This document shows positions 3,001 through 6,000 of a stretch of DNA of 64,000 bases, one piece after another. The stretch's first letter is position 1, and each line of letters starts with the position of its first letter. Position numbers: made by a program. The DNA lies in NCBI RefSeq assembly GCF_057098645.1, contig NZ_CM169472.1. One strand, given 5' to 3'.

Positions 3001-6000
3001 TTAACTGCCAGTGGCAACACTCACCCTAAATTTACGCGCGGTGATATTTACCGCGACCAGTACGGCGGCACGGTAATGATTAAGGGCGTGGCGGGACGGT
3101 GCGTAACTTACCGCCGTGAAGGTTACGAATATGATTGCGTGATGCCTGTTTATCAGTTCCGGCGTGATTTTTCTCTGGTACAGACCGCGCCGCATAACGT
3201 GCCCACCAGCAACGCCAGGGCACGGGCAAACATCCAGAAGCTGAAAACCATGATTAACGGATTCAGGGGCAAGAAATGAAAAGCGCACCGAACTTAAAAA
3301 AACAGCCTTACGACAAGATGACCGAAGTCATTATTTTTGCGGGTAGTGATGCCTGGGCACATGCGAAACAGTGGCAGGAACAGGACGGGCGACTGGCTGG
3401 CGATAATGTGCCTCCCGTTGTGCTGGCTGATGATCAACTGGATGAACTGGCAGACCTGATAATCATCGACGAGGGGCGCTATTGTGTCCGGCTGTACAAG
3501 GCAGGCCACATCAGGCCATCAAATATTAATGCCATTGCGCACAAGCTGGCGGCGGCGGGTGTAACTGATGCGAATTATTACCCCGAAGGGATGCACAGCC
3601 ATATGCGGGAGAACTGGCGCGAATACCTGGAACGGGTGCGCGGGAAAGAGCCGGCGGAAGAAAAAAACCACCAGCGAAAAACCACGCTACCGATGAGCGT
3701 TGGATCTACCGGATACGACACGCAACTGGATTACGTGGTTAAGGGGATTATTCCGGCGGTATCGCTATGCAGCATATACGGGGCTAGCGGGTCCTATAAA
3801 TCATTCCTTGCCGGATCGTGGGCGTGCCATGTTGCCACTGGTCGCCAGTGGGGAGGCCGCAGGGTTGCACATGGTGCGGTTCTCTATGTGGTTGGTGAAG
3901 GCGGTATAGGTGTTCCGCGTCGTGTAAAAGCCTGGGAGGTTGTGCACGATGAGCAGGTGAAAAATCTGTATCTGGTAAACCGCCCCATCTTTCCGGCTGC
4001 CCCGCTTGATGTTGATGAAATGGTTATCGCTGCCCGTCAGGTGGAGCGGGAAACGGGTAAACCTGTACGCATGATTATTCTGGATACGCTGGCGCGTTGC
4101 TTTGGTGGGAATGATGAAAATGATTCCCGTGATATGGGGGCGTTTATCCGTGGTTGTGACGAACTGAAACGACGCACAGGGGCCACGGTGCTGGTGGTTC
4201 ACCATTCCGGCAAGGATGAGACGAAAGGCGCGCGCGGTTCCAGTGCATTTCGTGCTTCGCTGGATGCTGAATACCGGATACGCAGGGAGGACGCAGGAAG
4301 CGAAGCGCTGGTTATCTCATGCACCAAAATGAAGGACGCGGAGGAACTCAAAGAAGCCGCATATGACTTACGCGTGGTGGAGCTTTTTACCGACGCTGAC
4401 GGTGAATTAATCACGTCGCTGGTGGTGGTGGATGATCCGCGCCCTCCTGTTGAACTGGAGCGCATCGAGGAGGCAGGGAACAAGACGGAAAACCATACCG
4501 CGCTATGGCAGTGCATCAGAACACGAACAGCACACGGGGAGGCGTGCACTATCGCCCTTCTCCGCGACGATATGAAAAAGCTGGGGTATGAGATGAAGCA
4601 CTTCCGGCGCTGGCTGTACAAGCTGGAAAATGATGGCGTAATCGTTATTGACGGTGATGACGTGCGCCCGCTGTAAAAAGTGGGGAGTAAAAGTGGGGAG
4701 AGCGGGGAATTTAACAAAATTGAAACATAATTACCCACTTTCCCACCTGTATATACCCAAAAAAGTGGGGAGTAAAAAATATATTGAAAAACATCACGTT
4801 AGAATCACAAAAAAAAGAGGTGGGGAGACGGTGGGTAATTTCAAAAAGTGGGGAGCAAAAGTGGGGAGTAGTGGGGAATGAACAGAAAAACCAGAGATAA
4901 GACAGCGCCAAAATATAAAGCGTTAGACATGACTGAGCACACCTTAAAGGTGGCAATCAGAACGATAGACCGCCACACGCGGGAAGGATACGCGAAGGAA
5001 CATCCCGACCTGATAAGCGCATTCATGACCACGGCGGCGGCAAACTTTGCCACGCTGACAGAACGGGAGATTGCCGAAGCGGAACAGGTAACAACCATCA
5101 ACGTTAAAACCGGAGAGGTGGAATTATGACGGCACAGATAGCCGCTTACGGGCGGCTGGTGGACGACCCGCAGGTAAAACAGACCAGCAAGGGCACACCG
5201 ATGACGCTGGCGCGTATGGCGGTATCTTTGCCATGCAGCCAGGCACAGGACGGACAGGCGACGTTATGGTTATCGGTCATCGCATTTGGCAAACAGGCCG
5301 ACTTCCTGGCTAAACATCAAAAAGGCGATGTTGCCAGCGTATCCGGCACGATGCAGGTCAGCCAGTGGACCGGACAGAACGGAGAAACGCGGCAGGGCTG
5401 GCAGGTTATCGCAGACAGCGTAATCAGTGCCCGCGCGGCACGTCCAGGCGGGAACAGACGCAAAACCACAGGCACACAGGGTAATCAGCCACCAGCGGGA
5501 GGCGATGACCCTTACGGTGATGATATTTCGTTCTGAGGGGGTGACGATGGTACATGACCGCATAGCGGAGGAACTGGAGGCGAAAGGCTTTTACCGGAGG
5601 GCGGCGGCGCGATGGGGTGAAGTCATGCAGCTGGTGGAGACAGACAAGGAACGGCATCATATCACGATGCGACGGCTGGAATGTTCCAGGAAGGCACAGA
5701 GGCCACCGGAGCCGCCGGATAATTACGGAGACCTGAAAAAGGCGGTCGATCGCACTTATGCCGAAATGGGTATGGATGGTGCTGGTGATGAAATATGGCG
5801 AAATTACCAGGACAGATAATCACACAGCCGGAGCAATCCGGCTTTTTGTCATGTTTTGTAAATTATTTGTTCGTGGTTGTTCCACGTTGTTCACTGAGTG
5901 GATCGGCATATTTTACCCGAACTGAATCATGATTATTCTCGCCCGTGGTGCCAGGACGCTGGGGCCATTTTCCCGCCTGTTAATGTGCTCGCCAATATTC

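What the first reader, a model, noticed from the sequence alone, without database searches (positions are those of the whole stretch)
4677..4878. Iteron-type replication origin immediately downstream of rep
About ten direct and one inverted copies of a GTGGGGAG core with AT-rich spacers fill the 200-bp gap after the AAA_25 ATPase gene. This is the classic layout of an initiator-plus-iteron origin and implies autonomous replication after excision.
Basis: partly seen in the sequence, partly recalled or inferred. Interest (0 to 1): 0.5.

Follow-up and report, generated by a model that had tools for sequence, protein, structure and literature searches.

The report
Satellite island replication origin with iterons
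The 200-bp gap after the helicase gene is the replication origin of a phage-satellite island (a capsid-forming PICI) in E. coli: a real but already described kind of element, and comparison with relatives shows which part of the helicase reads the repeats.

Summary
The gap 4677-4877 between the rep stop codon and the next ATG carries 11 copies of a GTGGG-core repeat. Nine are direct and two inverted; six are exact GTGGGGAG, out of seven in the whole 64 kb. They form two outer triplets around an AT-rich centre.

The interpretation also holds, on comparative evidence. The window's first ~13 kb is a capsid-forming PICI: int, alpA, DUF4222, RepA-family helicase, gap, SSB, PerC, capsid, protease, portal, HNH, terS, terL. 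Related islands keep the same slot but swap the rep allele, and each allele brings its own repeat. Within the RepA-helicase allele, the repeat follows only the last ~60 residues, a predicted winged helix. One residue (His442 here) predicts repeat base 4 in all 49 loci with clear repeats: H or K with G, N with A, S with C.

This layout was published for E. coli PICIs by Fillol-Salom et al. 2018, who showed rep- and ori-dependent plasmid maintenance for EcCICFT073, which has a different rep allele. One of their named islands carries this allele. So this is an ordinary, already known kind. It resembles SaPI origins, not plasmid iteron origins: the initiator is itself a helicase and there are no DnaA boxes. 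Replication was not tested here.

The parts
18..515 (+). 3' part of the island's tyrosine integrase gene, cut by the window edge; the left end of the island lies outside the window
   Evidence: Pfam Phage_integrase E=3e-13. Relatives have int at the left end.
880..1068 (+). alpA-like excisionase/regulator gene
   Evidence: phrog_2790 'excisionase and transcriptional regulator', E=2.5e-17.
2980..3279 (+). DUF4222 gene directly upstream of rep; conserved whichever rep allele follows
   Evidence: Pfam DUF4222 E=2.1e-23. The identical protein WP_000770163.1 sits next to unrelated rep/iteron types in L002 and L009.
3276..4676 (+). rep: RepA-family helicase-initiator, 466 aa. It has an N-terminal alpha/beta domain (res 1-122), a RecA-fold helicase core (about res 148-400) and a C-terminal winged helix (res 405-466).
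   Evidence: Pfam AAA_25 res 148-315. phmmer hit to RSF1010 RepA 1g8y. Foldseek: RSF1010 RepA TMt 0.71, T7 gp4, Twinkle. AF2 mean pLDDT 83. PGAP names the homologues 'helicase RepA family protein'.
4488..4673 (+). Coding region of the C-terminal winged-helix domain of Rep (res 405-466): H1 405-419, H2 426-435, recognition helix 443-452, beta-hairpin wing 456-465
   Evidence: AF2 of the domain alone gives pLDDT 93.7 and pTM 0.81. The top Foldseek PDB matches listed include many winged-helix DNA- or RNA-binding domains (LexA, DtxR/IdeR, Fur, MexR, SelB, histone H1), TMq 0.6-0.72, rmsd 1.9-2.6 A, but no match reached E <= 0.001.
4599..4601 (+). Codon of His442, the residue just before the recognition helix, in the motif K-X-[FLM]-x-[RK]-W. 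It is the candidate reader of iteron base 4.
   Evidence: It is the only column of the C-terminal alignment that perfectly predicts iteron base 4: MI 1.38 bits, equal to the full entropy, over 42 unique sequences from 49 loci.
4677..4878 (.). Whole origin: 11 iterons, the AT-rich centre and a TA palindrome
4680..4709 (+). Left outer block of three direct iterons (GTGGGGAG 4680, GTGGGGAG 4693, GCGGGGAA 4702)
   Evidence: The block is conserved in position in 8 E. coli loci and across Enterobacterales.
4710..4730 (.). First AT-rich spacer (70-85% A+T)
4731..4746 (-). Two inverted iterons (read on the minus strand: GTGGGAAA then GTGGGTAA)
   Evidence: The inverted copies change G to A in step with the direct ones in relatives (CCCAC to CTCAC).
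4748..4756 (.). TGTATATAC. GTATATAC is self-complementary. This TA-rich palindrome lies between the inverted pair and the next direct iteron and is a candidate first melting point.
   Evidence: It is read directly from the sequence. A TGTATA(T/C)A-like element is at the same place in most of the relatives displayed from several genera, and is not evident in L039, L057, L060 or L036. The function is inferred.
4765..4772 (+). Single direct iteron GTGGGGAG. Together with the inverted pair it forms a divergent arrangement around the palindrome.
4773..4817 (.). Main AT-rich region (about 45 bp, 65-85% A+T, with A8 and A6 runs); probable DNA unwinding element
   Evidence: The A-run differs by one base from the 99%-identical L002, which excludes coding.
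4820..4838 (+). Inner right pair of direct iterons (GTGGGGAG 4820, GTGGGTAA 4831)
4848..4878 (+). Right outer block of three direct iterons (GTGGGGAG 4848, GTGGGGAG 4861, GTGGGGAA 4871). It is an 80%-identical repeat of the left block, 168 bp away.
   Evidence: Family D3.
4878..5129 (+). Conserved small gene (83 aa, phrog_1231, function unknown) that always follows the origin
   Evidence: It is present after all rep alleles.
5126..5536 (+). Island-encoded single-strand DNA-binding protein, a probable replication accessory
   Evidence: Pfam SSB E=1.7e-16.
6063..12448 (+). Capsid and packaging module (major capsid, prohead protease, portal, head completion, connector, HNH, terS, terL). It makes the island a capsid-forming PICI.
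   Evidence: The gene order matches the E. coli cf-PICI L002 and the description of EcCIEDL933.

Best explanation
The gap is the vegetative replication origin of a capsid-forming phage-inducible chromosomal island (cf-PICI) integrated in an E. coli chromosome.

Proposed mechanism:
1. After a helper phage induces the island, the rightward operon is transcribed and Rep is made.
2. Rep is a RecA-fold (SF4, RSF1010-RepA-like) hexameric helicase with a flexible C-terminal winged helix.
3. The winged helices bind the 11 short iterons (consensus AAA-GTGGG-GAG). The residue just before the recognition helix (His442) reads base 4.
4. Binding on both sides concentrates Rep around the AT-rich centre (4773-4817) and around the TA palindrome, which is flanked by divergent iterons (4731-4772).
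5. The duplex opens there and the helicase loads itself, probably as two hexamers, without DnaA or a separate loader.
6. The island's SSB coats the single strands, and host primase and polymerase III do the synthesis.

What is shown here: the repeats, their layout, their linkage to rep, the domain architecture, and the winged-helix/iteron covariation.

What is shown by others for a sister island: rep- and ori-dependent plasmid maintenance for EcCICFT073.

What is inferred: binding itself, the melting site, self-loading, the two hexamers, and the use of host DnaG.
For: 1. Statistics and layout. Six of the seven exact GTGGGGAG in 64 kb lie within 189 bp. There are 11 degenerate copies, in two outer triplets 168 bp apart, around a centre of 33% G+C.

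2. Context. The island reads int, alpA, DUF4222, rep, gap, phrog_1231, SSB, PerC, then capsid to terL. This matches E. coli PICIs and cf-PICIs.

3. Module swapping. The same slot holds four kinds of rep, each with its own repeat in the gap:
- RepA-helicase with GTGGG or GTGAG;
- DUF927 with TAACCCGCA;
- primase family with TCTACC;
- another primase family with CTGTTCACC.

4. Natural domain swaps:
- window vs L001: Rep body 99.8% identical, winged helix 82%, iterons GTGGG vs GTGAG;
- L006 vs L007: body 95.6%, winged helix 82%, iterons GTGGG vs GTGAG;
- L005 vs L007: body 60.6%, winged helix 100%, same iteron.

5. Concerted change. In 8 E. coli loci motif positions 1, 2, 3 and 5 are 90-95% conserved. 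Position 4 flips in all copies together, the inverted ones included.

6. One-residue rule. In 49 loci from about 15 genera, H or K goes with G (24 loci), N with A (20) and S with C (5), with no exception. It is the only perfectly predictive column. A Klebsiella element found independently also fits (S with GTGCGGC).

7. Fold. The C-terminus is a confident winged helix and the core is a RepA/T7 gp4-like helicase.

8. Literature. [quoted passage not shown] They show that pri-rep-ori of EcCICFT073 maintains a ts plasmid and that deleting rep or ori abolishes or reduces this. That origin has 11 TCTACC/GGTAGA copies in the gap and one in the rest of the island. Their island EcCIRM12579 carries this RepA-helicase allele. 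SaPI Reps bind iterons through a C-terminal winged helix and self-load.

9. Circular forms. Related islands are deposited as closed circular 'plasmids' of 17.0 and 10.8 kb.
Against: - No experiment on this origin or on any RepA-helicase-type PICI origin was found. The functional test in the literature used a different rep allele.
- Covariation proves a specific Rep-repeat interaction, not that the interaction starts replication.
- The 49 loci are not independent. Twenty of them are Xenorhabdus. I count about six independent associations.
- Other winged-helix residues also differ between specificity classes, so His442 may not act alone.
- The circular 'plasmid' records could be assembled excision products rather than replicating molecules.
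- Seven relatives have weak or no recognisable iterons.
Confidence: 0.85

Rival explanations
1. The repeats are Rep-binding sites with a regulatory role rather than an initiation role. Rep bound here would gate read-through transcription into the SSB and capsid genes, or limit copy number by pairing iteron arrays (handcuffing). The true start of replication would lie elsewhere or be provided by the helper phage.
For: The array lies inside a unidirectional operon, between early and late genes. No promoter or terminator was predicted in it, so it is probably transcribed through. Iterons of plasmids are known to serve in copy control (general knowledge). Covariation fits any Rep-DNA interaction.
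Against: The array has an AT-rich centre flanked by iteron sets, the layout shown to be an origin in SaPIs and EcCICFT073. Deleting the equivalent region in EcCICFT073 reduced plasmid maintenance. No other iteron cluster exists in the island: 6 of 9 AAGTGGG in the 64 kb are in the gap. The two roles are not mutually exclusive.
Confidence: 0.08
2. The repeats are operators for another island regulator (AlpA, PerC, the DUF4222 protein or the Icd-like protein) and control a promoter for the downstream genes.
For: The island encodes several small DNA-binding regulators. The repeats contain GGAG and end at the start codon of the next gene.
Against: - AlpA (WP_000953274.1) and integrase are identical in L002 (GTGGGG repeats) and EcCICFT073 (TCTACC repeats).
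- DUF4222 is identical in L002 and L009.
- PerC is identical in L005 and L010, although their repeats are unrelated.
- Only the Rep winged helix tracks the repeat.
- No sigma-70-like promoter is predicted in 4400-5200.
Confidence: 0.03
3. The repeats have no function: a chance cluster, a decaying low-complexity tract, a small gene, or a structured RNA.
For: Two mechanical ORFs cross the gap (4648-4881 on + and 4711-4956 on -). Single-strand folding is slightly better than shuffles (z = -1.6).
Against: - None of 100 shuffles reached the observed count.
- Position and orientation of every copy are conserved from E. coli to Xenorhabdus, while the spacers diverge.
- A 1-bp A-run polymorphism between 99%-identical copies rules out coding.
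- PGAP annotates the gap as intergenic in all relatives.
- There is no Rfam match, and the fold z-score is not significant.
Confidence: 0.01

Closest known systems
Replication origins of Gram-negative PICIs (EcCICFT073 pri-rep-ori and other E. coli PICIs; Fillol-Salom et al. 2018, ISME J, PMC6092414)
   Same: The position is the same (immediately 3' of rep) and so are the flanking genes (DUF4222, rep, gap, small gene, SSB, PerC). Both have two sets of short iterons around an AT-rich region. Both have 11 copies. The same island family is involved. EcCIRM12579 of that paper carries the same RepA-helicase allele, whose protein is identical to that of L001.
   Different: The tested EcCICFT073 replicon uses a 584-aa primase-family Rep and TCTACC iterons in a 288-bp gap. 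Here Rep is a 466-aa helicase without a recognisable primase domain, and the iteron is GTGGGGAG. The host island is of the capsid-forming type.
SaPI origins and Rep / Pri-Rep of Staphylococcus aureus (Ubeda et al. 2007 and 2012, from my own knowledge; Qiao et al. 2022, PMC9371898)
   Same: The origin lies just after rep. It has 6-12 short iterons split around an AT-rich centre, some in opposite orientation. A C-terminal winged helix of a self-loading helicase reads the iterons, and specificity differs between islands.
   Different: SaPI Reps are AAA+ superfamily-3 helicases (3'-5'). This Rep has a RecA-fold SF4 core like RSF1010 RepA and T7 gp4, which predicts 5'-3' polarity. The motors are not homologous, so the resemblance is one of design, not of descent.
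Satellite phage P4 alpha protein with ori and crr (from my own knowledge: Ziegelin et al. 1993; Yeo et al. 2002, winged-helix origin-binding domain)
   Same: A satellite of enterobacterial phages. One polypeptide combines a helicase and a C-terminal winged-helix origin binder that reads octamer iterons. One E. coli PICI rep allele (L011) even uses CTGTTCACC, which contains the P4 type-I octamer TGTTCACC as I recall it.
   Different: P4 alpha has a primase domain and an SF3-type helicase. Its iterons sit in two separate clusters (ori and crr), not in one block after the gene. The iteron sequence differs.
Iteron-containing plasmid origins (pPS10, R6K, RK2, F, P1; Rep_3-type initiators; general knowledge)
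   Same: Direct repeats bound by a plasmid-encoded, winged-helix-containing initiator lie next to an AT-rich unwinding region. Specificity classes are defined by the iteron sequence.
   Different: Plasmid iterons are 17-22 bp, the initiator has no helicase activity, and DnaA boxes and host DnaB/DnaC are needed. Here the iterons are 8-10 bp, the initiator is the helicase, and no DnaA box, IHF site or GATC is present.
RSF1010 RepA helicase (PDB 1g8y)
   Same: The ATPase core has the same fold and family (AAA_25; phmmer E=0.006, Foldseek TMt 0.71).
   Different: RSF1010 RepA has no origin-binding domain; a separate protein, RepC, binds the iterons of oriV. Here a winged helix is fused to the helicase.

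Membership tests
PICI replication origin (Gram-negative lineage) | Lies immediately 3' of the replication initiator gene of the island | tested here: met
   The rep stop codon is at 4674-4676 and the first iteron at 4680.
PICI replication origin (Gram-negative lineage) | [quoted passage not shown] | tested here: met
   Triplets at 4680-4709 and 4848-4878, inner copies, and a centre of 33% G+C.
PICI replication origin (Gram-negative lineage) | Carried by an island with int, alpA, unidirectional rightward genes, about 10-16 kb, and no lysis or tail genes | tested here: met
   int (cut by the window edge), alpA, rep, SSB, PerC and capsid to terL are all on the + strand in 1-12448, with no tail or lysis gene. 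An otherwise identical chromosome lacks the island.
PICI replication origin (Gram-negative lineage) | Iteron sequence matched to the cognate Rep | tested here: met
   Rep allele and winged-helix type covary with the iteron in 49 of 49 informative loci, and natural domain swaps agree.
PICI replication origin (Gram-negative lineage) | Rep- and ori-dependent replication of a cloned fragment or of the induced island | not testable with these tools
   Shown only for EcCICFT073, which has another rep allele. Circular 'plasmid' records of relatives are suggestive only.
SaPI-type Rep (self-loading initiator helicase) | C-terminal winged-helix domain that recognises the iterons | tested here: met
   The fold is predicted with pLDDT 93.7 and matches many winged-helix domains. 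Recognition is supported by covariation, not by binding data.
SaPI-type Rep (self-loading initiator helicase) | AAA+ superfamily-3 helicase core homologous to SaPI Rep | tested here: not met
   The core is a RecA-fold AAA_25 / RSF1010-RepA-like domain. It works like a SaPI Rep but is not a member of that protein family.
Plasmid iteron origins (Rep_3 initiators) | Non-helicase WH1-WH2 initiator, 17-22 bp iterons, DnaA boxes | tested here: not met
   The only Pfam hit is AAA_25. The iterons are 8-10 bp. No DnaA box was found with up to one mismatch.
Capsid-forming PICI (cf-PICI, EcCIEDL933 type) | PICI backbone plus its own capsid, protease, portal, connectors, HNH, terS and terL, but no tail genes | tested here: met
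   The island is collinear with L002 and fits the description in bioRxiv 10.1101/2022.09.08.507074.

The most novel reading that the evidence does not exclude
A single residue at the N-terminal end of the winged-helix recognition helix (His442 here) acts as a one-letter code for iteron base 4: H or K reads G, N reads A, S reads C. Recombination of the last ~60 codons of rep together with the origin would then create mutually orthogonal replicon classes among co-resident satellites. On this reading the divergent iterons around the TA palindrome mark where two SF4 hexamers load back to back. That would be an SF4 counterpart, of independent origin, to the SF3 self-loading Reps of SaPIs. I found no description of this rule in the searchable literature.
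Probability: 0.45. Interest if true: 0.4.

Novelty: already known. Interest (0 to 1): 0.2.

Why it matters
The finding correctly marks the origin of a phage satellite. That helps annotate the island and predict that it amplifies after induction. The principle was published in 2018, so it adds little on its own.

The comparative by-products may be useful to people who work on satellites:
- a map of the specificity determinant to the last ~60 residues of a RecA-type initiator helicase;
- a simple residue-to-base rule, testable with one point mutation and one base change per iteron;
- a set of natural, apparently orthogonal Rep-ori pairs that could serve as compatible replicons.

Tried and rejected
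- DnaA boxes (TTWTNCACA, up to 1 mismatch), IHF sites and GATC in 4600-4950: none found. A DnaA-dependent plasmid-type origin was therefore dropped.
- Sigma-70 promoter scan of 4400-5200: none. The only terminator-like sites are on the minus strand inside rep. A promoter/operator reading is not supported.
- Rfam scan of 1-14000: no match.
- Single-strand DNA folding of the gap: z = -1.6, not significant. The 19-nt inverted repeat I1 is simply the inverted iterons.
- Megablast of the rep-ori region against phage genomes: no match. tblastn finds only distant helicase cores in phages, so this is not a prophage origin.
- Profile search of the C-terminal domain against PDB sequences: nothing significant. 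The fold had to be shown by structure prediction and Foldseek, and that Foldseek search also had no match at E <= 0.001.
- Foldseek with the whole Rep model: dominated by RecA/RAD51-type cores and uninformative about the N-terminal domain, whose role stays open.
- Looking for the iteron sequences of Fig. 2a of Fillol-Salom 2018 in text and supplements: not held. I could not confirm that this exact iteron was drawn there.
- Literature search for the P4 octamer as a string: only irrelevant hits. Statements about P4 rest on my own knowledge.
- GC skew across the gap: uninformative for a small, transiently replicating island.
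Full report
**1. What is in the sequence**

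The ORF 3276-4676 (466 aa) matches Pfam AAA_25 (E=7.8e-44). It ends with TAA at 4674-4676. The next ORF (83 aa, phrog_1231) starts at ATG 4878. The 201-bp gap is full of one repeat.

Exact GTGGGGAG occurs seven times in the 64-kb window, against 1.19 expected; 0 of 100 shuffles reached seven. Six of the seven lie at 4680, 4693, 4765, 4820, 4848 and 4861. With one degenerate pattern (GYGGGDAR) the gap holds 11 of the window's 47 matches. Nine are direct: those six plus GCGGGGAA at 4702, GTGGGTAA at 4831 and GTGGGGAA at 4871. Two are inverted, at 4731-4738 and 4739-4746.

The two outer triplets are an 80%-identical 45-nt repeat 168 bp apart (family D3). Most copies follow an A-run. G+C drops to 0.33-0.34 in the centre, against 0.5-0.6 outside.

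**2. Where it sits**

The window's first ~13 kb reads as follows, all on the + strand:
- integrase, cut by the window edge;
- alpA;
- an Icd-like/repressor-like ORF and several small ORFs;
- DUF4222;
- rep;
- the gap;
- phrog_1231;
- SSB;
- PerC;
- major capsid, prohead protease, portal, head completion, connector, HNH, terS and terL.

There are no tail or lysis genes. This is the gene order of capsid-forming PICIs such as EcCIEDL933 and of the E. coli cf-PICI L002.

The flanking chromosome (mdtJI, ydgD, asr, ynfM, mlc) is 100% identical to E. coli O145 genomes. One of these, strain RM9872, which I inspected, has no island upstream of mdtJ. The element is therefore an insertion in an E. coli chromosome.

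The rep-ori region matches 1,790 of 5,426 complete E. coli genomes at some level. The 231-bp origin itself matches 186 genomes, 19 of them at 99% or better. It has no DNA match in phage genomes.

**3. Evidence that the repeats belong to Rep**

I fetched 12 E. coli relatives. All keep the slot DUF4222, rep, a 200-370 bp gap, phrog_1231, SSB. The rep gene comes in unrelated alleles, and each has its own repeat in the gap:
- RepA-family helicase with GTGGG or GTGAG;
- a DUF927 protein with TAACCCGCA;
- primase-family proteins with TCTACC/GGTAGA;
- another primase-family protein with CTGTTCACC.

Other island regulators do not follow the repeat:
- AlpA and integrase are identical proteins in L002 (GTGGGG) and in EcCICFT073 (TCTACC).
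- DUF4222 is identical in L002 and L009.
- PerC is identical in L005 and L010.

**4. Which part of Rep reads the repeats**

Within the RepA-helicase allele nature has done the domain swaps:
- Window and L001 have Rep bodies (residues 1-404) that are 99.8% identical but C-termini (405-466) only 82% identical. Their iterons are GTGGG and GTGAG.
- L006 and L007 repeat this: body 95.6%, C-terminus 82%, iterons GTGGG and GTGAG.
- L005 and L007 have bodies only 60.6% identical but identical C-termini, and they share the same iteron.

In an alignment of the eight E. coli gaps, motif positions 1, 2, 3 and 5 are 90-95% conserved. Position 4 flips in all copies at once, the inverted ones included. Positions 6-8 drift.

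A scan of one genome per species returned 74 loci, mostly Enterobacterales such as Xenorhabdus, Kosakonia, Kluyvera, Trabulsiella, Serratia, Pectobacterium, Erwinia and Morganella. In the 49 loci with at least four copies of one GTGNG variant in the 230 bp after rep, the residue X in the motif K-X-[FLM]-x-[RK]-W predicts N without exception:
- H goes with G (7 loci);
- K goes with G (17 loci);
- N goes with A (20 loci);
- S goes with C (5 loci).

The coding sequence upstream serves as a control and has 0-2 such words per 230 bp.

Among all columns of the C-terminal alignment (42 unique sequences), this one, His442 in the window (codon 4599-4601), is the only perfect predictor. Its mutual information is 1.38 bits, the whole entropy of the iteron classes.

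A Klebsiella element found later by a different route also fits: KSF goes with GTGCGGC.

The loci are not independent, because 20 are Xenorhabdus. I count about six independent associations: two switches inside E. coli and four clades elsewhere.

**5. Structure**

AlphaFold2 on a 38-sequence alignment gives mean pLDDT 83. The model has three parts:
- an N-terminal alpha/beta domain (residues 1-122);
- a RecA-fold core that matches RSF1010 RepA (TMt 0.71), T7 gp4 and Twinkle (sequence match to 1g8y);
- a C-terminal H1-H2-H3-hairpin.

Predicted alone, residues 396-466 reach pLDDT 93.7. Many of their top PDB matches are winged-helix domains: LexA, DtxR/IdeR, Fur, MexR, SelB and histone H1, with TMq 0.6-0.72 and rmsd about 2-2.6 A. 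E-values are weak (none at or below 0.001), as expected for 70 residues.

His442 is the residue just before the recognition helix (443-452). That is a usual place for a base contact. The pairings are chemically plausible (Asn with A, His or Lys with G), but this is inference.

**6. Layout and likely mechanism**

The order is conserved from E. coli to Xenorhabdus and Klebsiella:
1. two or three direct iterons;
2. an AT-rich spacer;
3. one or two inverted iterons;
4. a TA-rich palindrome (TGTATATAC at 4748-4756; GTATATAC is self-complementary);
5. one direct iterons;
6. an AT-rich stretch of about 45 bp;
7. four or five direct iterons.

I found no DnaA box, IHF site or GATC, no promoter-like site, no Rfam family and no significant single-strand structure. 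A one-base A-run difference between 99%-identical copies excludes coding.

The most likely mechanism is as follows. Rep hexamers bind the iterons on both sides through their winged helices. They open the AT-rich centre or the palindrome between the divergent iterons and load themselves. The island SSB and the host primase and polymerase then complete the job. Binding, the melting site and self-loading are inferred by analogy with SaPI Reps.

**7. Comparison with what is known**

Fillol-Salom et al. [quoted passage not shown] They state that it is shared by all the islands they identified. They show that the EcCICFT073 rep-ori segment maintains a ts plasmid, and that the rep deletion abolishes this while the ori deletion reduces it.

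EcCICFT073 carries the primase-family Rep and 11 TCTACC/GGTAGA copies in its gap, against one in the rest of the island.

Their Table S1 island EcCIRM12579 (NC_017656.1, 1438155-1449376) contains my hit H20. It encodes the RepA-family helicase WP_000833618.1, the same protein as in L001. This allele was therefore in their data set. I could not see Fig. 2a to check whether its iterons were drawn.

Against other known systems:
- SaPI origins have the same design, but their Reps are AAA+ SF3 helicases. Here the motor is RecA-fold SF4, so it works like a SaPI Rep without being a homologue.
- Plasmid iteron origins differ in iteron length, in the nature of the initiator and in their need for DnaA.

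**8. Verdict**

It is a member of an already described kind of origin, so interest is low.

The incremental points are the mapping of specificity to the winged helix, the one-residue/one-base rule, and the conserved palindrome between divergent iterons. I did not find these in the searchable literature.

Replication itself remains untested for this allele. Two related islands are deposited as closed circular 'plasmids': K. pneumoniae CP018459.1 (16,971 bp) and E. coli NZ_CP148328.1 (10,790 bp). This is consistent with episomal copies but does not prove replication.

Noticed in passing
L013 2587-3010 (Xenorhabdus beddingii NZ_MUBK01000002.1): There are two complete origins in tandem after one rep gene. 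The first is of the GTGAGG type, which matches its N-type Rep. It is followed directly by a second with the same layout but (G/A)TGGGG iterons. None of 17 other Xenorhabdus loci has this. It might let the island be replicated by the Rep of another satellite.
   Followed up: partly
L088 (CP018459.1, K. pneumoniae, 16,971 bp circular) and L089 (NZ_CP148328.1, E. coli, 10,790 bp circular): Two records filed as non-mobilizable plasmids are whole PICI or cf-PICI genomes (int, alpA, rep, capsid or terminase genes). They are probably excised or replicating satellite circles that were assembled as plasmids.
   Followed up: partly
window 4748-4756: A TA-rich palindrome, TGTATATAC, lies between the inverted and the next direct iteron. 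It is conserved in position in most relatives examined across several genera, although the spacers around it diverge.
   Followed up: partly
window 3276-3641 (Rep residues 1-122): The N-terminal alpha/beta domain of Rep is shared with other, otherwise unrelated rep alleles. Loci L079, L081, L083 and L084 and plasmid hits H92 and H93 match only residues 1-130, at 54-72% identity. The same segment appears in the Pri-Rep alignment of the 2018 paper. Its role is unknown.
   Followed up: no
L004 661-2277 (E. coli ETEC1734): Here rep is a pseudogene with an internal stop. About five of its 11 iterons carry substitutions relative to the window (for example GTGGGTAG, GTTGGGTAA, GTGAGGA). This may reflect relaxed constraint after loss of Rep.
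   Followed up: no
window 12449-14017: The right end of the island lies here. mdtJ starts at 14018 and mdtI ends at 14699. E. coli O145 RM9872, whose flank is 100% identical, has tqsA and ydgV directly before mdtJ and no island. The att site was not mapped because the left end is outside the window.
   Followed up: partly
window 1126-2295: A 389-aa ORF has no Pfam hit. Only its last ~90 residues match phage 'transcriptional repressor' families (phrog_6196, E=1.9e-56). Relatives annotate short Icd-like cell-division inhibitor genes in this area.
   Followed up: no
L011 3168-3454 (E. coli B1W1): The origin of this cf-PICI uses CTGTTCACC/GGTGAACAG iterons. As I recall, this contains the type-I octamer of satellite phage P4. 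That hints that one PICI rep-ori module is shared with, or derived from, P4.
   Followed up: no
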